Positions 5,080-64,000 of a DNA stretch of 64,000 nucleotides are shown piece by piece; position 1 is the first letter of the stretch; each line of letters begins with the position of its first letter. Below the pieces are notes generated by a model, which was not told the DNA's origin, did not search any database, and worked only from the letters and a program-made list of their open reading frames with translations. The DNA lies in the IMG/VR virus record IMGVR_UViG_3300024239_000016, positions 1 to 64,000 of that record; one strand, given 5' to 3'. The translations under genes were made by a program, and so were the position numbers. Source of the DNA: a virus.

Positions 5080-5472
5080 ATGACTGATGATAACAAAATT
5101 TATTCTCTCGTATATACCTTTTGTACAGGAGACCAGCAAAAGCGTGGTTATATTGATTCCTTGATTTCCAGTATCGATACCATTATCCGGTCAGTTCTTC
5201 CTAGAGAACACGATACATGTTGGAAATTGAATCTCGGTCCTACTCATATCTGGTTCAAAGAATCGGATATGCTGTTTTGTACAATCGATACCAATATTGC
5301 CAATATTCGTTTGATTGAAAACATTCGCGGACTAGAGATCTCGATCAAGCATCCTGGATCTAGTGCGTGGAAGAGAATTGCTTTAGCGTCAGACGACGAC
5401 TATGTAGTAGTTCTAAACGAGCTTCAGAAACTGAATGCGACGTATCGTAATACGTATCTGGTGCTTTACTAA
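5080..5472 (+). CDS. Hypothetical protein
   Basis: 130-aa ORF, SD AGGAG, followed by terminator. Confidence 0.75.
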   Translation: MTDDNKIYSLVYTFCTGDQQKRGYIDSLISSIDTIIRSVLPREHDTCWKLNLGPTHIWFKESDMLFCTIDTNIANIRLIENIRGLEISIKHPGSSAWKRIALASDDDYVVVLNELQKLNATYRNTYLVLY

Positions 5473-5482
5473 ACGATCTAAC

Positions 5483-5524
5483 CACACAGCCCCAATTGGG
5501 GCTGTGTGCGTGTATTTTTTTTTT
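5483..5524 (+). terminator. Rho-independent terminator
   Basis: CACACAGCCCCA-AT-TGGGGCTGTGTG plus T tract. Confidence 0.75.
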
Positions 5525-5548
5525 ATGTGATATGGAGTATTTCAGTTA

Positions 5549-5563
5549 CATATAACCTTTGTG
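5549..5563 (+). promoter_or_regulatory. Putative early promoter
   Basis: CATATAAC-N5-TG, preceded by TTTTATGTGATATGGAGTATTTCA also found at about 9517. Confidence 0.65.
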
Positions 5564-5612
5564 ATCTGCTTTAATAATCCCATTAAAGCTAGCCATTTTT
5601 AGGAGAAGAATC

Positions 5613-5924
5613 ATGGCATATTACAAAATTTTTGGTGAGCAAGCCGATCAAGGTAAGATCGATGACATCATGATCGCTGGTGCTCTTGGTGACTTGTGGG
5701 CTCTTGGTCTTGGCATCAAAGAGATCGAAGTCTGCTATGGCGGTATTCGTCTCTTTACCAAGGATGGTAACATCATCAACTACACGGTCGATGGAGGGCT
5801 TGTGACCATTGCTCTGGCAGCCGACAACTTCGAATCTGTCCCGTTCGAAGTTACCCCGGAGCAAATCACAATCTTCAACAAGCTTACCATGTGGCCTCTC
5901 GGGGCTTTTGGTCATAGTCGTTAA
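5613..5924 (+). CDS. Hypothetical early protein
   Basis: 103-aa ORF, SD AGGAG. Confidence 0.8.
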   Translation: MAYYKIFGEQADQGKIDDIMIAGALGDLWALGLGIKEIEVCYGGIRLFTKDGNIINYTVDGGLVTIALAADNFESVPFEVTPEQITIFNKLTMWPLGAFGHSR

Positions 5925-5946
5925 CTCATTTAGCCAGGAGGCTATC

Positions 5947-6228
5947 ATGGAACAACTGAAACTGCAGTACCCCGGTCGTTACCATAATGGCCGGATGTTT
6001 CAATCTGACGTAGCTGAGCCCACTAATGCTCAGCGTGCTGAGAATAAGCGCACTCTCAGTCGCAACATGACCAAGTCTGGAAAGTACATCCTTCCGGCTT
6101 TGGTAGCGATGGGCATTCCTCTCGGGGCTGTGCTCTCTATCGTGGGCACTGAGGCTAAGCGCGATCGCGCTGTCGCTGCCTACAATCGCAACATCATAAC
6201 CGCCCACAACTACATGTCGTGGATGTAA
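5947..6228 (+). CDS. Hypothetical membrane protein
   Basis: SD GGAGG before ATG 5947; hydrophobic segment YILPALVAMGIPLGAVLSIVG. Confidence 0.7.
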   Translation: MEQLKLQYPGRYHNGRMFQSDVAEPTNAQRAENKRTLSRNMTKSGKYILPALVAMGIPLGAVLSIVGTEAKRDRAVAAYNRNIITAHNYMSWM

Positions 6229-6257
6229 TCTTTTACGATCATAGAACGGAGAAAATC

Positions 6258-6560
6258 ATGATCAAGACCAATGAGAAGAATCTCGCTGAAGTGCGAGTTG
6301 CTACCGCCTACATCGATGGCGGTAATGGTATCACGTTTGAGGATCACCTCTACTTGGTGGTTGATGAAAGTGGTGTTATCAAGTTTTGCAGTCGCTCTAT
6401 CATCGAAGCTGATGGTGAGCGTGCTGTAAGTGGTCGTGGCATCCGTGAGATGCTGAACAATAAGGCAGCTGTAGTTGGTGCTGCCTGTCTGAGCGTTGGC
6501 ATGACCTTCAAGGAGGTCATGCAACACTGTCTTATTAACAAGCCGTTCTATCCGGCTTAA
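6258..6560 (+). CDS. Hypothetical protein
   Basis: SD GGAG before ATG 6258. Confidence 0.75.
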   Translation: MIKTNEKNLAEVRVATAYIDGGNGITFEDHLYLVVDESGVIKFCSRSIIEADGERAVSGRGIREMLNNKAAVVGAACLSVGMTFKEVMQHCLINKPFYPA

Positions 6561-6575
6561 CTGGAGGAAGTACAA

Positions 6576-6851
6576 ATGAGTATCAATGTCGTACTGGCTG
6601 ATGTGAAGGACTATCCCGACCTTGACTTCCAGCGTCTTGGTCATTTGTTCGTTGCAGCAAGTGATGAGTTCAAGCTTCCGGTGCAACAGATCATCCGGGG
6701 TGAGGACGATGTCACGATCAGTGATGGTCGGACTATCATCAGTATGTCCGAGATGACCAAGCCCAATGGTAAGGGCATCAAGGCAAAGGCAGCTGTGCTC
6801 TTCCGCCATATTGAAGCAATGCTTCCGGCTGGCACCTACACTCTTCAGTGA
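6576..6851 (+). CDS. Hypothetical protein
   Basis: SD GGAGG, 91 aa, terminator after. Confidence 0.75.
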   Translation: MSINVVLADVKDYPDLDFQRLGHLFVAASDEFKLPVQQIIRGEDDVTISDGRTIISMSEMTKPNGKGIKAKAAVLFRHIEAMLPAGTYTLQ

Positions 6852-6865
6852 GTGTAGAAAAGATT

Positions 6866-6897
6866 GCTAGGGATTTCTCCTAGCTTTCTTTTTTTTT
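6866..6897 (+). terminator. Rho-independent terminator
   Basis: GCTAGG...CCTAGC plus long T tract. Confidence 0.7.
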
Positions 6898-7189
6898 GTT
6901 TTGTTATGTTACTATATTCTATGTACTGAAACTTGTTCCCATAATGTTCAGTGCCTGGGTCACCCCTAATACCTCCATTAGCTATAGTTAAAAATACTCC
7001 TTATATATCTTCTATCCTTACGGATAGGAATGGGTAGGGTTTATTCTCTTAAAATGATAATACCCTATAAATCATGAGGATTTAGTAATAGAGTAATAGA
7101 TTTAGCAGATAGCTAGCATTTAGAGTTATTTAAAGAATCTATTAAAGAGAGATTGAGATAGATTGTAATTGAAAATAGATAAGAATAAA

Positions 7190-7215
7190 TACATAGCCCT
7201 CTAAGGGGCTATGTA
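7190..7215. terminator. Intergenic hairpin
   Basis: TACATAGCCC...GGGCTATGTA. Confidence 0.55.
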
Positions 7216-7246
7216 GGATTTATGCTGTTAAAGTTTTTTGTAAATA

Positions 7247-7261
7247 TATATTACTAAACTG
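7247..7261 (+). promoter_or_regulatory. Putative early promoter
   Basis: TATATTAC-TAAAC-TG. Confidence 0.7.
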
Positions 7262-7297
7262 ACGTAGTTTAACCATTTCAGTTTTAAAGGTACGATC

Positions 7298-8029
7298 ATG
7301 ATTACTCAAGAACCTATTATTGAAGAGAACAAAGTAATCTATCTCAGTATTGGAGATCTTTGGAATCTAGCTGAGAGAAAAGAAAAAGACGGACATCAGT
7401 GTGACGATTCGTATTTTTTGTTTGATAGCTATTTATTTCTGGCTGACTTTCATAAGTTGGCTATTGCATGTAGTGGGATGATTCCAGTAGCTGCTTTTAA
7501 CGAAAATGTACGTCGTATCTTTTTCAGGAAAGATTGGATATTTGGACAGGTAGCAGCGGAGCTCATTGGCGGTCAATCTGTAAGTGGTATTGTTTTGAAG
7601 GATATCTTCGACGACGCTACAGCGGCTGATACAACTGCCGATCTCGGGAAGATTAAAGAGATCATTCGAATTATGCTGATGCAGTACAATGCAGATATTA
7701 CATCTGCCATTTCGGCATACGGTACTCTGGAAAAGAAAGATCTCTCATTTGTTTTTGAGACTGAATTCCAGCTAAAGGTGAATGCTAATTGTGATAAACG
7801 AGTCGATATTGATTTTGTCACAAATATGCTCTATCTTTACAAGAAAATGAATAATTCGATTATTCAGCACCTCGACCAAAAATTCGTAAGCCCCGATTCC
7901 AAATCTTATCGTTTGATGTTTGGACTTATCGCTATGTTAAGACGGCGAGCAGAACAAAAAACGAAAGAACAGATTCATCACTCTCTCAATTATTTAAAAG
8001 AAACCAAATCAGAACCCAAGGGGATTTAA
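7298..8029 (+). CDS. Hypothetical protein
   Basis: 243-aa ORF. Confidence 0.75.
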   Translation: MITQEPIIEENKVIYLSIGDLWNLAERKEKDGHQCDDSYFLFDSYLFLADFHKLAIACSGMIPVAAFNENVRRIFFRKDWIFGQVAAELIGGQSVSGIVLKDIFDDATAADTTADLGKIKEIIRIMLMQYNADITSAISAYGTLEKKDLSFVFETEFQLKVNANCDKRVDIDFVTNMLYLYKKMNNSIIQHLDQKFVSPDSKSYRLMFGLIAMLRRRAEQKTKEQIHHSLNYLKETKSEPKGI

Positions 8030-42603: not shown

Positions 42604-43350
42604 ATGGCAAACCAAAATGCAATTCATTATGTCAGTACTGCGTTAGTTGATGCAAACAAATGTGGTAAGTTGAAGCGCGATAAGGAAGGCTACTACGAGA
42701 TCGTGCTCGGTGGCCTGAACGTCATTAACTCCACAGGCGCGGTATACACGATGGAAGGTGCCAGTGCACTGATGGATAAATCCAACTTGCTGAACCGCCG
42801 CTTGATGGCTCAGCGTTTGAATTCCGAACTAGGTCATCCGAAGCGTCTTCCTGGCCAGTCTGATGACGAATATTTTGCTCGCATTCTTTCGATCGAAGAG
42901 ACAAACGTTTGCAGCCACATTCGTGAGTTCCGTCTGGAGCCGCGCCAAGGTAGCGAAGAAGTGATGATCATCGGCTGGGTTAAGCCGAGTGGTCCGCATG
43001 GCGCGCATCTCGAGGCATCGTTCAACAATCCGAATGAAAATGTTTGTTATTCCATTCGTTCGTTTACTGATGACTTCCGTCACGGCTATACCCGTAAGAA
43101 AGTTCTGAAGACAGTGGTTACTTGGGATAAGGTAAATGACCCAGGTATTCATTTCGCAAACAAGCTGGACACACCCTCGCTTGAAGAACTCGATCACAGC
43201 ATCTTCACGCGCTCTCAGCTGGAGCGCATGATAAAGGATGCCAACGATGGTGGTCCCAGCATGGAGAGCATGCTGCTGTCGGCTCGCGATTTGCTATCAG
43301 CGCTGGGGCAGCCGATCGCGTCATCGACATCAGCGTTTATGCGCTGGTAA
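42604..43350 (+). CDS. Prohead protease (phiKZ gp175 / T4 gp21-like)
   Basis: ELGHP (H78), YSIRS (S150), TWD (D175); C-terminal SLE/SME self-cleavage motifs. Confidence 0.88.
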   Translation: MANQNAIHYVSTALVDANKCGKLKRDKEGYYEIVLGGLNVINSTGAVYTMEGASALMDKSNLLNRRLMAQRLNSELGHPKRLPGQSDDEYFARILSIEETNVCSHIREFRLEPRQGSEEVMIIGWVKPSGPHGAHLEASFNNPNENVCYSIRSFTDDFRHGYTRKKVLKTVVTWDKVNDPGIHFANKLDTPSLEELDHSIFTRSQLERMIKDANDGGPSMESMLLSARDLLSALGQPIASSTSAFMRW

Positions 43351-43416
43351 TTATGTCCGCCCGTGCCGACTTCAATGCGGTCTTAGAGATTGCTTCGGAT
43401 AAGGTCAGGAAAGATA

Positions 43417-43457
43417 CACAAGTGGTAGAGGCTGTTTAGAGACCTCTACCACTTGTG
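43417..43457. terminator. Intergenic hairpin
   Basis: CACAAGTGGTAGAGG...CCTCTACCACTTGTG. Confidence 0.6.
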
Positions 43458-43621
43458 ATCCATATCACACCTAATCACTCAAGTCACAAAGCTGGAATTT
43501 CAAAATAAGAAATTATTAGAAGTTTCAACTGAGGCTAAAAAAAAACGGCATTTATGACATGGTGACATTTTTCCAGAGGGGACACCCCTCTGGAAAGTGC
43601 TTAGATTAACAAGGAAAGAAA

Positions 43622-44803
43622 ATGAAACGAAATGCTCCATCTGGTCTATTTACTCCTGATCCACGTACATATGCCTTCTCTCTTGAAGAGGCTCTTCTTG
43701 ATCTTGGTGCTGATTCTCTGGACGGCATTCAAGAGGTAATTGCTGAAATGGACGATGGTCCTGAGCTCACTCCAGAGACCGTTATCTCAGAAGAAGGAAT
43801 CGGAACAGATATCCGTAATGGTTTCGATGATCTCTTCCAGTACCAAGTTCTGCACTGGAAACATTTCCGCGATGTTCAGAATGATTTCTTCTCGGAGACC
43901 AATCCGAAGATAGCCCGCTACAACCAGAAGCTGAATGAAACGTGGCGTGAGTTTCAGGAAAAGAAGCACAAGTTCCGCGATGGAGAGCACCATCTATCAC
44001 TGATGGAGCTGTGGTACTTCTTCTCCAACAAGCAAGGTGCCTCGCGTAATGTGATTCGTGATCTACAGCAAGATACGGAATTCTCCAAGTTTGTCTTGGT
44101 AACCTATCGCAAGGCTGTCATCGATCAACTCTCCGCGCTGGCATCTATCGTTCAAGGAGCACGGCTGCATAGCTTGGCAGATTGCCATAAAGTTATCGAA
44201 GCCATTCAACGCTTGAAAACTATCGATGAGCTTTTCGATGACAAGTGGCTTGGCGAGGGACGTTACTTCAACGTCACTTCAGTTATCAAATCGGCAGGCA
44301 GTGTTGGTAAGGATTTTGAATTCGATGGTAAGTCATACTCGCGCGCCACTGAGCTGAGCTCCGGTGCGCGAGTTGTCGAGAAGAAATCAAAGGGCCATAC
44401 AGCCATGAAAGTTGTTGCTAATGTAACCAACATTGGCGCAGCTATCAAGGGATCATCGATCGCCCCAATGGAAATCTCTACCAATGAAATTGGCGAGATC
44501 ATCATGTTCGGTAAAGATTACGTTGCCAATCTCGATACTGGTCTGGAGCTCAGCAACAGCGCTGAGCGAGCAACCAATGCGCTCATGCGTGGCGTCGAAG
44601 CAATGCGTGGGAGCTCTCACATTCCTGCTGACGATATTCCCGAACTGCGTAAGTTTGTGAAATTCGTTGGTCAGGTTGCGGATAGTTATATTGCCGCGCT
44701 GAAGCAACCATTTGGTGCAGAAGTCATTCGCTCTATCAAAGGAGCCAAGTACTGCTACTACATTGGTCTGCGTTGCATATACAACGCCTCCAAATACATC
44801 TGA
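43622..44803 (+). CDS. Probable internal head protein processed by the prohead protease
   Basis: Acidic N-terminal propeptide with SLEE and ISEEG (S-x-E) sites. Confidence 0.6.
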   Translation: MKRNAPSGLFTPDPRTYAFSLEEALLDLGADSLDGIQEVIAEMDDGPELTPETVISEEGIGTDIRNGFDDLFQYQVLHWKHFRDVQNDFFSETNPKIARYNQKLNETWREFQEKKHKFRDGEHHLSLMELWYFFSNKQGASRNVIRDLQQDTEFSKFVLVTYRKAVIDQLSALASIVQGARLHSLADCHKVIEAIQRLKTIDELFDDKWLGEGRYFNVTSVIKSAGSVGKDFEFDGKSYSRATELSSGARVVEKKSKGHTAMKVVANVTNIGAAIKGSSIAPMEISTNEIGEIIMFGKDYVANLDTGLELSNSAERATNALMRGVEAMRGSSHIPADDIPELRKFVKFVGQVADSYIAALKQPFGAEVIRSIKGAKYCYYIGLRCIYNASKYI

Positions 44804-59251: not shown

Positions 59252-59294
59252 ATACATCACTACCGGGCAATGCCCGGTAGTGATGTATTTTTTT
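59252..59294 (+). terminator. Rho-independent terminator
   Basis: ATACATCACTACCGGGCA-A-TGCCCGGTAGTGATGTAT plus T tract. Confidence 0.8.
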
Positions 59295-59301
59295 ATAAAA
59301 A

Positions 59302-59316
59302 CATATTACTTTACTG
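59302..59316 (+). promoter_or_regulatory. Putative early promoter upstream of the tRNA/ncRNA island
   Basis: CATATTAC-TTTAC-TG. Confidence 0.65.
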
Positions 59317-59733: not shown

Positions 59734-59790
59734 TGATTTAATTCGCAGCACATTTATGTGATGTAAAGTAACAAACAAAGGGCACCTGCT

Positions 59791-60361
59791 AATAAACTAT
59801 CGGTAGTCAACGTGGCTGGCTATTAGAAATAATACCACGCTGCGATGGCGTAACGATAGAGTCGAAAGAAGCATAAAACATCTATTCATTTTGGCACGCG
59901 TAAAACCTTAAAAAGATAGATGGGTGAATCTGTTCAAAGTCGGCGAATGCTGCGTCCGTTAGGACACGCTAACGCCGAGCCAAAACAAGTTGTCCTATTC
60001 AGCCTAACCTACCTTTAGTCGGATGTACTTGACCGGTAGTATGGCGGGGATGTAAATGCTAGTTCAGGTAAAACACTACGGTGTAACTAGAATCTCGGGA
60101 GAGATCTAAAGACAGGCATTCTTGTGAGGTGTAGAGAGATGATGGACAGGACCTAAGTCTGCTGGCGATGATGTTTGTCGTTAAAACGAAGTTAACTCGA
60201 TAGTGATATGGATAAATTGCCTATCATGATGACCGTGTTAGCGTAAGGAAGCAGATATGGTAAAGGCGATCTCCGGACTACAACAATAGATGGACATGAC
60301 GCGTGCGTTGCGAGACAGCACAAATCACATACATCTCTGATCGTCGTAAGACGATGTAGTG
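59791..60361 (+). ncRNA. Group I intron ribozyme (IC3-like core), no ORF
   Basis: P1 CTGCT 59786-90/GGTAG 59802-06 with U.G; P2 CATCTAT/ATAGATG; P3 CTGTTC 59930/GGACAG 60144; P4 TCGGCG/CGCCGA; P6 GCC/GGT; P7 G(A)GAGAT 60134/ATCTCC 60269; P9 ACTACA/TGTAGT then terminal G 60361; P10 AAACT/AGTTT. Confidence 0.82.
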
Positions 60362-60498
60362 AGTTTCCTTAAACTAAAAGTGCATCCCAGTGCTGGCCTT
60401 ATTAGCATTGCGTAGCCTGACAGCGTAACAGGTTAATTCTAGTTAAAGAAGAAAGTGCTCATGGATTAATACTAGGTAATCGCATCCATGACAGATGT

Positions 60499-61517: not shown

Positions 61518-61790
61518 TCATCAGAGTACCACACAAACCGGAACCAGTTCCTGTACCGGTAGCTTTAAGCTCAATAGCCTCGTAGGAGGGTGAGGGATAG
61601 TTAATGGGCGCTATATCGACTTTGTCGTGATACCCATGAAATCGGTTAGCAGAGCCGATGGGCGACTTCTGTTAGTATCAAGCGTTGAGGCTATGTTCAG
61701 GATTGTATTTGGGCATTCGACCATCTGTTTTAGATGTCTGGTTCGACTCCAGTAATGATACGATCTAGGGATCCCTTGGGTCCCTATTCT
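61518..61790 (+). ncRNA. Candidate structured RNA with a T-arm-like 3' element
   Basis: No ORF of 60 aa or more; stems ACCGG/CCGGT, ATAGCCTC/GAGGCTAT, ATGGG/CCCAT, ATCGG/CCGAT, CATCT/AGATG, CTGG-TTCGACT-CCAG. Confidence 0.4.
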
Positions 61791-61834
61791 AAAGTGATTT
61801 ATTTTACAATTATTTTAGAATAGTAAACTTTAAT

Positions 61835-61919
61835 CCGCGGGTGGCGAAATTGGTAGACGCATGAGACTTAAAATCTCACACCGAAAGGTATATGGGTTCG
61901 ACTCCCATACCGCGGACCA
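61835..61919 (+). tRNA. tRNA-Leu(TAA)
   Basis: Cloverleaf, TGAGA-CT-TAA-AA-TCTCA, ACC-GAAA-GGT variable arm, CCA. Confidence 0.92.
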
Positions 61920-61950
61920 TATCTTCTTAATCAACGAAAGAAAGAAAATT

Positions 61951-62298
61951 ATGTCACGTAAAGAACATAAAGGTCAAAAATTCGATCTTGCTTACGGCGT
62001 AGATCGCTATAGTGGGGCTTTCGTTCAGCTCTTCCAATCTCCGATGGACGATCAAGATGGCGCTTTCCTCAACGTGGATTCCCACGGAGTGCGTCTCGAT
62101 GAAGATCATCCCGAACTGCCCACTGAGCTCACCAAAGTGATCTCGGGGCTGAAATTGGCTTTCTGCCGTTATAAGGAAGCTCACAACGATAATCCGAATC
62201 TCTCGGTCGATCATGTGCTGCATGTTGCCCGCGCAGCTGATCAATTCGATACCTTCTCGGAAAAAGAAGTGTATCAGGTCTTTGGCGATAACGCTTGA
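61951..62298 (+). CDS. Hypothetical protein
   Basis: ATG 61951 after the tRNA; 115 aa. Confidence 0.7.
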   Translation: MSRKEHKGQKFDLAYGVDRYSGAFVQLFQSPMDDQDGAFLNVDSHGVRLDEDHPELPTELTKVISGLKLAFCRYKEAHNDNPNLSVDHVLHVARAADQFDTFSEKEVYQVFGDNA

Positions 62299-62309
62299 AA
62301 AAAAAAAAG

Positions 62310-62877
62310 CATGTGCTCGCTATTGTCTGAATAGTAAAGAAAGCACGGACTTACTGAGTCCGATAGTGAGGCAGTCCTGCATTGTCGTCAGATCAAGGCC
62401 TATTCATGATAGGTACAGTTTGACATCAGACTCTGGCAGTTAGGCTGATCAGAAGTGGAGCCGTGATAGTTCCGGATTTCGCAAAACCCTCAGATTACTT
62501 CTGTGGTCAGATGCGAGAGATGATGGAGTACCAGTGTCGAAGAGTGTGCGAGGGTGAACCTAGCGCTCTTAAACGGTCGACTAAATCAGAACTGATATTT
62601 GGCTATCGGCGATGAGGATTGGTTTAGAATCATGCCAATGTTCGAAATCCAAGTTCAAGGAGTTTATTGGGTAGTGATGAGAGAACTATCCTAGATACGT
62701 TTTCTCATCACTAGAACAGACGACATCCAGGCGAAACTGGGTTAAGTGAACTAGACCCACCAATCCATAGCACATAGGTGAATACGCACTCCCTTAGGTC
62801 TAGAGTGTCAGTAGTTCGCGCGGACTACCTCGACAGCATCGCCCTTGCAAAGCGGTGCTGTCCTGGAAGTGCGCATG
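62310..62877 (+). ncRNA. Candidate large (~570 nt) structured ncRNA
   Basis: Ends pair (CATGTGC/GCGCATG); more than 12 helices, some with crossing long-range pairings; ends 7 nt before tRNA-Pro. Confidence 0.65.
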
Positions 62878-62884
62878 AAATTGT

Positions 62885-62961
62885 CCGTTCGTAGCGCAGC
62901 CTGGTAGCGCATCTGTTTTGGGAACAGAGGGTCGCAAGTTCGAATTTTGCCGGGCGGACCA
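62885..62961 (+). tRNA. tRNA-Pro(TGG)
   Basis: Cloverleaf, TCTGT-TT-TGG-GA-ACAGA, CCA. Confidence 0.93.
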
Positions 62962-62985
62962 TTCTTATTTTACCAAGAGGTAATC

Positions 62986-63228
62986 ATGCAATCAAACCAT
63001 AAAAAAGATGGCGTTGAAGCAATAAAAGAGCTGATCAAAGAAGTATGGAATACGCTCAAACGGCTTATCGAAGACTGTTTCATTAAACTGATGCAAAAGC
63101 ACATCAGGTGCTCTAGCAAAAAGAATTGGGTAGCGCGCAGCTCAAGTATTTTTTCTTTGGGCGACCGCAAATTACTTGGCATCAGGCGACATACCCCTGA
63201 TCGTTGGCTAGGTTATATTCGGAATTAG
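62986..63228 (+). CDS. Small hypothetical protein
   Basis: SD GAGGT before ATG 62986. Confidence 0.55.
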   Translation: MQSNHKKDGVEAIKELIKEVWNTLKRLIEDCFIKLMQKHIRCSSKKNWVARSSSIFSLGDRKLLGIRRHTPDRWLGYIRN

Positions 63229-63249
63229 TAACATTGGGAGCGGTGTAAC

Positions 63250-63675
63250 ATGAATCTTCATTTCACATCCCCTAGCGTTGGGAGCGATGTATGGATTGTC
63301 AAGGAGGATAAAATCCTTGGCACTGGCGCTGTAGTGGGATTTGATGGACAAGATCGACTGAGTGTGATGTTAAAAGACGCTGCAGCGAACGATCTACTTC
63401 CTCTGACTACCGATGACTTAAAAAGCATTGGTTATGGTTATTTATTTATCGGCTATGATGCGAATACGTGCGATTTACATCGTAATCAGGCAATAGTCGA
63501 TCTTATCAAAGATGACAGCCCTCTAATTGGCACTTCCATTGTTGATAAATTTAAACTCCGCTATGGTCTTGTTAACGACCGTTTCAAAAATGTCCCTGGT
63601 TATCGCGAAGCGTGCATCATGGAAGTCGGCCAGTCATTGACTGAACTACCCCAGAGGTCCTGTGATGGTGCGTAG
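63250..63675 (+). CDS. Hypothetical protein
   Basis: 141 aa, SD GGAG. Confidence 0.7.
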   Translation: MNLHFTSPSVGSDVWIVKEDKILGTGAVVGFDGQDRLSVMLKDAAANDLLPLTTDDLKSIGYGYLFIGYDANTCDLHRNQAIVDLIKDDSPLIGTSIVDKFKLRYGLVNDRFKNVPGYREACIMEVGQSLTELPQRSCDGA

Positions 63676-64000
63676 AATATTTCAGAGCAGGGATTTACCG
63701 TGGCGTCAGCGTGTTACAATTGTTGTTGTCAACGATAACGGGAATGTCCTCATCGCTAATCAGCCCCCGTTACCGCCTTATAACGAAAAAATGCTGACCC
63801 TACCTGGAGGCGGCATTGAGCCAGGACAGACTCCAGAAGAGGCAGTAGCAGCTGAGCTTCTTGAAGAGGTTGGCGTCAAAGTAAGCGGCATTCAGGTACT
63901 TGACTGTCATACATTCGAAGAGCCGTTTACCGTGCTAAAGCCAGGAGAAGGTACCCCAGTTCAAATCGAGCGTCGCAAGTTGTTTAAAGGCGTACAATCT
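63665..64000 (+). CDS. Nudix hydrolase (truncated by the window end; not in the ORF track)
   Basis: MVRRIFQSRDLPWRQRVTIVVVND...LPGGGIEPGQTPEEAVAAELLEEVG, a variant Nudix box. Confidence 0.8.
   Translation, partial: MVRRIFQSRDLPWRQRVTIVVVNDNGNVLIANQPPLPPYNEKMLTLPGGGIEPGQTPEEAVAAELLEEVGVKVSGIQVLDCHTFEEPFTVLKPGEGTPVQIERRKLFKGVQS

What the first reader, a model, noticed from the sequence alone, without database searches (positions are those of the whole stretch)
62310..62877. ~570-nt ornate non-coding RNA candidate ending at tRNA-Pro
Seen: no credible ORF; terminal helix CATGTGC/GCGCATG; hairpins CGGACT/AGTCCG, CTGATCAGAAGT/ACTTCTGTGGTCAG, AAGAGTG/CGCTCTT, a 15-bp stem at 62672/62699, GTAGTTC/GGACTAC and GACAGCATCGC/GCGGTGCTGTC. 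Crossing long-range pairs GGATTTCG 62474/CGAAATCC 62643, GGATTGG 62616/CCAATCC 62760, CTAGACC 62751/GGTCTAG 62797 and TCCAGG 62726/CCTGGA 62862 imply pseudoknots or alternative folds. Established: ROOL and GOLLD are large structured RNAs found beside phage tRNAs, and the size fits ROOL. Inference: a divergent member of those classes or a new large ncRNA class. I cannot assign a family by eye.
Basis: partly seen in the sequence, partly recalled or inferred. Interest (0 to 1): 0.85.

Follow-up and report, generated by a model that had tools for sequence, protein, structure and literature searches.

The report
Conserved folded RNA beside phage tRNA-Pro
A 570-base gene-free stretch next to a tRNA gene in an uncultured giant (phiKZ-like) phage is very probably a gene for a large folded non-coding RNA of no catalogued family, kept almost letter-perfect in phage relatives from several habitats, but its exact fold and its job remain unproven.

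Summary
The stretch 62310-62877 (+) is real non-coding sequence in the tRNA island of a 194-kb phiKZ-like jumbo phage. All six frames score like off-frame sequence. The + strand folds far better than shuffles (z -5.6) and lies in the top 0.7% of the genome once GC is allowed for; the - strand is average. It matches no Rfam family even at E<=10. ROOL and GOLLD models give nothing, so membership of those classes fails.

The new result comes from other datasets. Contigs from four other studies, one of them a metatranscriptome, cover 62337-62840 at 98.8-100% identity. In the same run the ORF 70 nt upstream has changed at 21% of its third codon positions (Fisher p 8e-9).

Only six variants are known. 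Two keep a hairpin through G-C/G.U swaps, so there is no true covariation test. Six local hairpins are robust.

No homologue was found in 50,697 phage records, 27 related jumbo-phage genomes, IMG/VR, JGI metagenomes or GTDB genomes.

Best reading (about 0.6): a stable structured ncRNA cut from the island transcript, with RNase P at tRNA-Pro making its 3' end. The same stretch was flagged twice before in overlapping windows, and similar RNA islands were noted in other jumbo phages.

The parts
62310..62877 (+). Body of the candidate large non-coding RNA. True ends are unknown; conservation in other datasets was seen for 62337-62840 and on into the tRNA.
   Evidence: Non-coding in six frames; z -5.64 on +, -3.40 on -; genome-background residual -30.8 against +0.4 kcal/mol; no Rfam family; 98.8-100% identical contigs in four other studies.
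62299..62309 (+). A11 run between the stop codon of the upstream ORF and the first helix.
   Evidence: Read directly; no contig of another run covers it, so its conservation is unknown.
62346..62362 (+). 6-bp hairpin CGGACU/AGUCCG.
   Evidence: Pair probability 0.85.
62387..62424 (+). Two-tier hairpin (GUCAGAU/GUUUGAC enclosing GCCUAUU/GAUAGGU).
   Evidence: p 0.81 and 0.94. Natural variants 62389 C>U and 62393 U>C keep their pairs with G62422 and G62418 (C-G to U.G; U.G to C-G), and only on the + strand.
62540..62570 (+). 8-bp hairpin AAGAGUGU/GCGCUCUU with an inner 3-bp tip.
   Evidence: p 0.92.
62672..62713 (+). Long hairpin, 15 + 4 bp with one G.U.
   Evidence: p 0.99; inverted repeat I2.
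62786..62808 (+). 6-bp hairpin GCACUC/GAGUGU with an 11-nt loop.
   Evidence: p 0.83.
62832..62862 (+). 11-bp hairpin whose 9-nt loop CCUUGCAAA carries the palindrome UUGCAA.
   Evidence: p 1.0; the palindrome is read directly. A kissing-loop role is speculation.
62878..62884 (+). 7-nt spacer AAAUUGU before the tRNA; inferred RNase P cut after 62884.
   Evidence: Coordinates. The cleavage is inferred from the general role of RNase P, not shown.
62885..62961 (+). tRNA-Pro (UGG).
   Evidence: ARAGORN; Rfam tRNA 56.8 bits. One X2 contig spans 62855-62940 with one difference, linking the RNA's 3' end to the tRNA in a relative.
61951..62298 (+). Upstream 115-aa orphan ORF; a real gene that serves as the divergence yardstick.
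   Evidence: Codon log-odds +0.24. In run X2 12 codons changed synonymously and 4 non-synonymously, and 15 of 72 third positions changed. No homologue in 5.8 billion proteins.
59252..59309 (+). Strong terminator (59252-59288) followed by an ACATATTAC promoter-like motif (59303-59309) at the head of the tRNA/RNA island.
   Evidence: 17-bp stem plus T-run. TATATTAC occurs 13 times on + and 0 on -; the next copy on + is at 75236. Promoter function is inferred.

Best explanation
62310-62877 is the gene for a roughly 0.55-kb, strongly folded non-coding RNA of an uncatalogued family. It is carried on the + strand of a phiKZ-like jumbo phage, inside its tRNA island.

Shown:
- It is non-coding.
- It is strand-specifically and exceptionally structured for this genome.
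- It is held almost invariant in relatives whose neighbouring gene has drifted.
- It was assembled from a metatranscriptome library.

Inferred:
- It has no promoter of its own and is made as part of one long island transcript starting at the TATATTAC-type motif at 59303.
- Its 3' end is made when host RNase P cuts at the 5' end of tRNA-Pro, 7 nt after the last helix.
- The compact multi-hairpin body then survives as a stable RNA, like the stable RNAs of the T4 tRNA cluster.

Guess (weak): it acts in trans as a scaffold or decoy that binds a host or phage factor, or self-associates as ROOL, GOLLD and OLE do. The palindromic UUGCAA loop on the 11-bp stem is one handle to test that.
For: Non-coding: all six frames are off-frame-like.

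Structure:
- z -5.64 with 0 of 100 shuffles as stable.
- GC-adjusted residual -30.8 kcal/mol, top 0.7% of the genome, against +0.4 for the opposite strand.
- 31 of 187 predicted pairs are G.U, which fits an RNA read from the + strand rather than a DNA element.
- 150-nt windows are below z -2 only between 62300 and 62900.

Conservation:
- X2: 2 differences in 494 nt. X4: 5 in 418. X6: 0 in 257. X7: 5 in 296.
- The ORF 70 nt upstream shows 19 in 214 (X2) and 11 in 72 (X7); Fisher p 8e-9 and 2e-5.
- The X2 ORF changes are 12 synonymous to 4 non-synonymous, so they measure near-neutral drift (21% of third positions).
- Two of the six RNA variants are pair-preserving transitions in one predicted hairpin.

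Expression hint: X4 is a metatranscriptomic library and holds a 418-nt contig of the RNA.

Context: five tRNAs lie on the same strand. There is a terminator then a promoter-like motif at the island head, and no strong + strand terminator before the RNA.
Against: - No diverged homologue exists, so there is no covariation test; six variants are too few, and two of them (62382, 62616) break the predicted long-range helix.
- Long-range pairings are uncertain (p 0.1-0.6) and at chance level, so the global fold is not known.
- The runs were found through 31-mers of 62200-63000, so near-identity of the RNA in them is partly ascertainment.
- The RNA and ORF contigs of one run may come from different genomes.
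- A contig in an RNA library does not prove transcription, because DNA carry-over is possible.
- Neither end is mapped.
- Sub-domain covariance models find nothing in 27 related jumbo phages, so the RNA may be confined to one narrow lineage.
Confidence: 0.6

Rival explanations
1. Cis-acting precursor element: the stretch is not a free RNA but a long structured 3' UTR of the upstream ORF and/or 5' leader of tRNA-Pro. It would set transcript stability or the order of processing, and be degraded after RNase P cleavage.
For: It sits between an ORF and a tRNA on the same strand, 7 nt from the tRNA. No promoter-like motif of the TATATTAC class lies in front of it. One X2 contig joins its 3' end to the tRNA.
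Against: 570 nt with about 187 predicted pairs is far more than leaders need. The other tRNAs of the island and those of related phages are packed with short spacers. Near-invariance over about 500 nt is unusual for a leader.
Confidence: 0.15
2. Recently exchanged cassette: the block 62337-62940 (RNA plus tRNA-Pro) is nearly identical across datasets because it moved or recombined recently between phage strains, as a mobile or mosaic module. The identity then says little about selection on the RNA.
For: Identity of 99-100% stands next to a neighbour that differs by 9-15%. Such a sharp step is typical of mosaic phage genomes. The runs were selected by matching this very stretch.
Against: - Only a 7-bp imperfect terminal inverted repeat (CATGTGC/GCGCATG) and no target-site duplication stand out by eye; the repeat finder reports no further terminal repeat.
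- No second copy in the genome.
- No copy in any other phage, plasmid-free prokaryote genome set or metagenome collection searched.
- It does not explain the exceptional strand-specific folding.
- It is also compatible with the RNA being functional.
Confidence: 0.1
3. Divergent member of ROOL or GOLLD.
For: Size (568 nt against the 574-position ROOL model) and position beside phage tRNAs, as described for both classes (PMC12286853).
Against: No ROOL or GOLLD match at the locus even at E<=10; the only ROOL match in the genome is a 12.9-bit chance hit at 179500.
Confidence: 0.03
4. Unrecognised ribozyme or intron-like element (group I or II, RNase P-like). Other first-stage notes claim group I cores elsewhere in this island.
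For: Large structured RNAs in phage tRNA regions include introns. Rfam's group I model is known (my own knowledge) to miss some subgroups.
Against: No group I, group II, RNase P, tmRNA or small-ribozyme match in 59250-65300 at E<=10. No interrupted host gene: the flanks are a complete ORF with its stop codon and a complete tRNA.
Confidence: 0.05
5. No function: spacer DNA, a decayed gene or a DNA-level element (origin, packaging site) that happens to fold well.
For: A single lineage, no covariation evidence, function unknown.
Against: A neutral spacer or pseudogene should diverge at least as fast as the neighbouring third codon positions (21%) but shows 0.4%. There are no iterons or direct repeats. 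Folding is strand-specific with 17% G.U pairs, which a duplex DNA element would not need.
Confidence: 0.07

Closest known systems
ROOL RNA (Rfam RF03087)
   Same: About 570-580 nt, ORF-free, multi-stem, carried by phages and prophages and often near tRNA islands (PMC12286853). Function unknown.
   Different: No match to the ROOL covariance model. ROOL is known mainly from prophages and phages of other bacterial groups, whereas this is a phiKZ-like jumbo phage whose nearest cultured kin infect Burkholderia and Ralstonia. No multimer evidence here.
GOLLD RNA (Rfam RF02032)
   Same: A large phage or prophage RNA next to, or even containing, tRNAs. GOLLD expression rises during phage lysis (PMC12286853).
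   Different: No match to the model. GOLLD members often exceed 800 nt and share a conserved 3' half that was not detected here.
Stable RNAs of the phage T4 tRNA cluster (species 1 and 2, rnaC/rnaD). From my own knowledge; no paper retrieved.
   Same: Non-tRNA stable RNAs encoded among phage tRNA genes on the same strand, made from the same precursors by host tRNA-processing enzymes. Function still unknown.
   Different: The T4 RNAs are about 120-140 nt, whereas this one is four times larger. Processing and stability are not shown here.
RNA islands of nucleus-forming jumbo phages, and the multi-copy large RNA of RaK2-like phages, as noted earlier in this scan (e1-5336319, e1-5368591, e1-222323; unchecked AI notes).
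   Same: Jumbo phage, ORF-free blocks of folded RNA next to tRNA genes, including RNAs of about 600 nt and a copied rRNA hairpin. This island also has an LSU rRNA-like hairpin at 64510-64581.
   Different: No shared sequence words with any other scanned genome. No hammerhead here. Single copy, not 3-5 copies.

Membership tests
ROOL (RF03087) | Score at or above the family's gathering cut-off (99.1 bits) against the covariance model. | tested here: not met
   No ROOL match in 62200-63000 at E<=10. The whole-genome search gives only 12.9 bits at 179500.
ROOL (RF03087) | About 580 nt, in a phage or prophage, near tRNA genes. | tested here: met
   568 nt, ending 7 nt before tRNA-Pro, in a phage tRNA island.
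GOLLD (RF02032) | Score at or above the gathering cut-off (150 bits); conserved 3' domain. | tested here: not met
   No match anywhere in the 194-kb record at E<=10 or in the stretch.
Group I intron (Rfam Intron_gpI) | Match to the catalytic-core model, and an interrupted host gene whose exons join. | tested here: not met
   No match at E<=10. The flanks are a complete ORF and a complete tRNA.
RNase P RNA, tmRNA, group II intron | Match to the Rfam models; for tmRNA, ARAGORN detection. | tested here: not met
   cmscan at the gathering cut-off and at E<=10. ARAGORN finds only tRNAs.
Phage tRNA-cluster stable RNAs (T4 species 1 and 2 type) | Encoded among tRNA genes on the same strand, without an ORF. 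| tested here: met
Phage tRNA-cluster stable RNAs (T4 species 1 and 2 type) | Co-transcribed with tRNAs, released by tRNA-processing nucleases, and accumulating as a discrete stable RNA. | tested here: inconclusive
   A 418-nt contig of the stretch exists in a metatranscriptome library. Contigs cannot show ends, strand or level, and DNA carry-over is possible.
Multi-copy large RNA of RaK2-like jumbo phages (earlier notes of this scan) | Three to five diverged copies per genome; detectable similarity to RaK2-like phage records. | tested here: not met
   No paralogue by blastn (word 7) or nhmmer. No blastn match in 50,697 phage records.

The most novel reading that the evidence does not exclude
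This is the founding member of a new class of large phage RNAs in which nearly every nucleotide is constrained, as in rRNA or a ribozyme core. It would form a defined three-dimensional particle, possibly an RNA-only multimer nucleated by the palindromic UUGCAA loop. During infection by a nucleus-forming-type jumbo phage it would act on the host translation or RNA-processing machinery, as one component of an island that also carries an rRNA-hairpin copy.
Probability: 0.12. Interest if true: 0.8.

Novelty: new variant of a known kind. Interest (0 to 1): 0.55.

Why it matters
Large ornate phage RNAs such as ROOL and GOLLD have been known for over a decade, and now have cryo-EM structures, but still have no function. 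Each independent class found in a different phage lineage narrows what they could be doing.

This one sits in a phiKZ-like jumbo phage, a group under intense study for its nucleus-like compartment and host takeover. It is the clearest element of a 10-kb island that mixes tRNAs, folded RNAs and an rRNA-like hairpin. The sharp contrast between an almost invariant RNA and a drifting neighbour gene gives a concrete, testable claim of function.

If it holds up, the RNA is a compact target for in vitro folding, cryo-EM and pull-downs. If not, it is a case study in how mosaic exchange can mimic selection.

Tried and rejected
Homologue searches that found nothing:
- blastn (word 11) against 50,697 phage records.
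- Exact 21-mers from two invariant parts of the RNA, in IMG/VR (first 21-mer only), JGI metagenome contigs and GTDB genomes.
- A 17-mer in IMG/VR gave two chance hits in GC-rich coding DNA.
- The acceptor/D-arm of this tRNA-Pro in IMG/VR.
- Both flanking ORFs and the 500-aa gene upstream of the island have no close relative among 5.8 billion proteins, nor by peptide patterns in IMG/VR.
- An alignment-based search found 27 IMG/VR relatives, all 46% identical or less in RNAP beta. BLAST of the RNA against 22 of them gave only chance matches.
- Three sub-domain covariance models (R1-R3) hit only the phage itself among 28 records.
- Spurious ORFs inside the RNA are not on record on any other contig.
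- The scan's own index holds no look-alike in other genomes.

Other negatives:
- No paralogue within the genome.
- Cultured relatives FLC9, RP12 and FLC1-1B have tight tRNA clusters without large gaps.
- No rRNA-like piece in the stretch.
- The proteins of the island gave no RNA-linked clue: orphans, one NUDIX, one GNAT.

Not used as evidence:
- Lack of contig cover of the flanks in runs X4 and X6, and the places where contigs stop inside the RNA. Low-depth contigs leave holes that prove nothing.
- Runs with small shares (X7 at 0.17, X8 at 0.11) are not used for any habitat claim.

Literature: searches for phiKZ-type or jumbo-phage large ncRNAs near tRNAs found only general statements.

Full report
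**Where it lies.** The window is the first 64 kb of a 194-kb IMG/VR virus record, estimated 73% complete. PHROG matches include RNA polymerase beta subunit phrog_2986 and virion proteins. The best tblastn hits are Burkholderia phage FLC9 and Ralstonia phages RP12 and RSL2 at 41-45% identity, with local gene order around the RNAP beta gene partly conserved (best in RSL2 and FLC9). These make it a phiKZ-like jumbo phage with no close sequenced relative.

The target lies in a tRNA island that opens with a strong terminator (59252-59288) and an ACATATTAC motif at 59303. TATATTAC occurs 13 times on the + strand of the record and never on the - strand, and the next + copy after 59303 is at 75236. 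Five tRNAs of the window, and a sixth just past its end, all lie on the + strand.

The order around the finding is:
- tRNA-Leu(UAA), 61835-61919
- a 115-aa ORF, 61951-62298
- an A11 run
- the 568-nt stretch
- a 7-nt spacer
- tRNA-Pro(UGG), 62885-62961
- an 80-aa ORF with a good ribosome-binding site at 62986

The stretch is non-coding. A codon log-odds score trained on the phage's 72 long ORFs gives -0.51 to -0.76 in all six frames. That is the off-frame range (-0.75 +/- 0.25), against +0.26 +/- 0.09 for genes and +0.12 to +0.24 for three of the four small neighbouring ORFs scored (the 80-aa ORF at 62986 scores -0.06).

The + strand folds to -202.6 kcal/mol, against -165.4 +/- 6.6 for dinucleotide shuffles (z -5.64). 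The - strand gives z -3.40.

As a control that shuffles cannot give, I folded 485 windows of the same length across the genome on both strands and regressed MFE on GC. The target's + strand is 30.8 kcal/mol more stable than expected, in the top 0.7% of 970 window-strands. Its - strand is average at +0.4. The asymmetry fits the 31 G.U pairs among 187 predicted pairs and argues for an RNA read from the + strand rather than a DNA-level element. In 150-nt windows, z on the + strand is below -2 in six of the twelve windows between 62300 and 62900 (weakest -0.16) and in none outside, and is mostly within about 1 of zero (down to -1.8) in the flanking ORFs.

Not all of the anatomy holds. Six local hairpins are robust in the Boltzmann ensemble, with p 0.81-1.0:
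- 62346-62362
- 62387-62424
- 62540-62570
- 62672-62713
- 62786-62808
- 62832-62862

Two of the listed hairpins have p about 0, and the four 'crossing' long-range pairs have p 0-0.15. Perfect complements more than 100 nt apart are no more frequent than in shuffles: 10 seven-mers against 6.9 +/- 3.3, and 3 eight-mers against 1.65 +/- 1.6. Pseudoknots are therefore not shown.

**What it is not.** cmscan against all 4227 Rfam 15 families finds only tRNAs in the window at the gathering cut-offs. On 62200-63000 at E<=10 it finds only the tRNA and two chance snoRNA matches.
- ROOL (RF03087) and GOLLD (RF02032), searched over the whole record at E<=10, give nothing at the locus.
- There is no group I or II intron, RNase P, tmRNA or small ribozyme anywhere in 59250-65300, and no rRNA-like piece in the stretch.
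- There are no iterons or direct repeats and no paralogue in the genome.

**Evidence from other datasets.** A 31-mer index of public runs lists eight runs from six studies that hold part of 62200-63000, besides the likely source sample. I laid the contigs of four runs from four studies on 61700-63400.

| Run | Type | Region covered | Differences |
|---|---|---|---|
| X2 | DNA | 62337-62830 | 2 in 494 |
| X4 | metatranscriptome, compost | 62350-62767 | 5 in 418 |
| X6 | DNA, wastewater | 62584-62840 | 0 in 257 |
| X7 | probably DNA | 62374-62523 and 62547-62692 | 5 in 296 |

A further X2 contig runs from 62855 into the tRNA (to 62940) with one difference, so the RNA-tRNA-Pro linkage is kept.

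The upstream ORF is covered only by diverged contigs: 19 differences in 214 nt in X2 and 11 in 72 nt in X7. The contrast is significant (Fisher p 8e-9 and 2e-5). In X2 the ORF changes fall on 15 of 72 third codon positions, giving 12 synonymous and 4 non-synonymous codons. This shows the ORF is a real gene. It also puts near-neutral divergence between the two phages at about 0.2 per site, some fifty times the 0.4% seen in the RNA.

Of the six RNA variants:
- 62389 C>U and 62393 U>C lie in the hairpin 62387-62424 and keep their pairs (C-G to U.G; U.G to C-G). These changes are tolerated only on the + strand.
- 62519 and 62534 are unpaired in the MFE fold.
- 62382 and 62616 break the uncertain long-range helix.

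**Caveats on that evidence.**
- The runs were selected because they share 31-mers with this stretch, so the RNA's identity in them is partly ascertainment.
- The RNA and ORF contigs of a run could come from different strains.
- Contigs in an RNA library do not prove transcription and cannot show ends or strand.
- Such complete invariance is more than secondary structure alone would demand. It needs either constraint on nearly every base or a recent exchange of the RNA/tRNA-Pro block between strains.

**Search for diverged homologues.** All searches were negative, so there is no covariation test.
- Phage GenBank records by blastn.
- Exact 21-mers from two invariant segments in JGI metagenomes and GTDB genomes, the first of them also in IMG/VR.
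- A 17-mer and the tRNA-Pro 5' part in IMG/VR.
- The flanking proteins, which are orphans.
- 27 IMG/VR relatives, none above 46% identity in RNAP beta. Neither BLAST nor three sub-domain covariance models found the RNA in them or in five cultured relatives.
- The cultured relatives that have tRNAs pack them tightly, without large gaps.

As far as these collections show, the RNA belongs to one narrow, uncultured lineage.

**How it most likely works.**

Shown: a non-coding, + strand-specific, unusually stable fold of about 570 nt. It is kept nearly invariant next to a drifting gene, is physically linked to tRNA-Pro in a relative, and is present in a metatranscriptome assembly.

Inferred: transcription from the promoter-like motif at 59303 as part of the island transcript, since no TATATTAC-type motif and no strong + strand terminator lie between it and the RNA. 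RNase P cleavage at 62884/62885 would define the 3' end, and the compact RNA would persist as a stable species.

Guess: a trans-acting scaffold or decoy, or a self-assembling particle like ROOL, GOLLD and OLE (PMC12286853). The 9-nt loop CCUUGCAAA on the most certain stem carries a 6-nt palindrome that could form a symmetric kissing loop. By chance a loop of that size would hold such a palindrome about 6% of the time, so this is a lead, not evidence.

I put 0.6 on 'functional stable structured ncRNA'. The rivals are:
- a cis-acting leader or UTR element, 0.15
- a recently exchanged cassette whose identity is not selection, 0.10
- no function, 0.07
- an unrecognised ribozyme or intron, 0.05
- a divergent ROOL or GOLLD, 0.03

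**Comparison and novelty.** It works like, or at least sits like, ROOL and GOLLD, and like the stable RNAs of the T4 tRNA cluster. It fails the membership tests for ROOL, GOLLD, introns, RNase P and tmRNA.

Earlier notes of this scan flagged this same stretch twice in overlapping windows (e1-5692856, e1-5692847). They also describe the surrounding 10-kb 'RNA island' (e1-5692837, e1-5692852). Follow-ups on other genomes report comparable islands in nucleus-forming jumbo phages, and a multi-copy large RNA in RaK2-like phages (e1-5336319, e1-222323). None shares sequence with this one, and this one is single-copy.

I class it as a new variant of a known kind: a new, so far lineage-restricted, large phage ncRNA candidate beside tRNAs. 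Interest is moderate (0.55). The conservation contrast is striking and the host phage group is topical, but the fold, the ends, the expression level and the function are all still open.

Noticed in passing
L003:6510-6581 (record 64510-64581, 510 nt beyond the window end), + strand: A 72-nt segment matches the bacterial LSU rRNA model RF02541, positions 2135-2206, at 50.4 bits (E 1e-12 to 3e-15). It lies inside a 1-kb ORF-free gap before tRNA-Ser(UGA). It looks like a copied rRNA hairpin, probably the L1-stalk region by my memory of 23S numbering. The match was not re-reported when only 1 kb was scanned.
   Followed up: partly
window 59303-59309 and the whole record: TATATTAC occurs 13 times on the + strand and 0 times on the - strand; ATATTAC occurs 22 against 4. 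This is a phiKZ-type early-promoter-like motif. One copy follows the 17-bp terminator at 59252-59288, and the next + copy is at 75236, so the tRNA/RNA island may be one transcription unit.
   Followed up: partly
window 59734-60498 and L003:6220-7237: Other first-stage notes call these gaps group I ribozymes. Rfam finds no group I intron there even at E<=10. The gaps are ORF-free and may still be structured RNAs of another kind.
   Followed up: partly
L003:10801-11770 (record 68801-69770), + strand: These are two of the three most over-stable + strand windows of the genome (GC-adjusted residuals -35.7 and -43.4 kcal/mol; the - strand is +10 and -12). Only short ORFs of 88-89 aa overlap them. 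They may be further large structured RNAs of the island.
   Followed up: no
window 61951-62298: The 115-aa orphan ORF upstream is a real gene: a relative in run X2 differs by 12 synonymous and 4 non-synonymous codons. It has no homologue in 5.8 billion proteins and no Pfam or PHROG family.
   Followed up: yes
window 63662-64000 running on to record 64219; L003:8912-9757: The island also encodes a NUDIX hydrolase (PF00293, 4e-17) and a GNAT acetyltransferase (PF00583, 4e-15) among orphan mini-genes.
   Followed up: partly
window 62843-62851: The 9-nt loop CCUUGCAAA of the most certain hairpin (11 bp, p 1.0) contains the 6-nt palindrome UUGCAA, the layout of a dimerisation kissing loop. It could easily be chance.
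   Followed up: no
window 43201-43768 and 5201-7368, + strand: Other windows with unusually stable folds (residuals -36 and -27 to -34 kcal/mol) overlap ORFs. They were not examined further.
   Followed up: no
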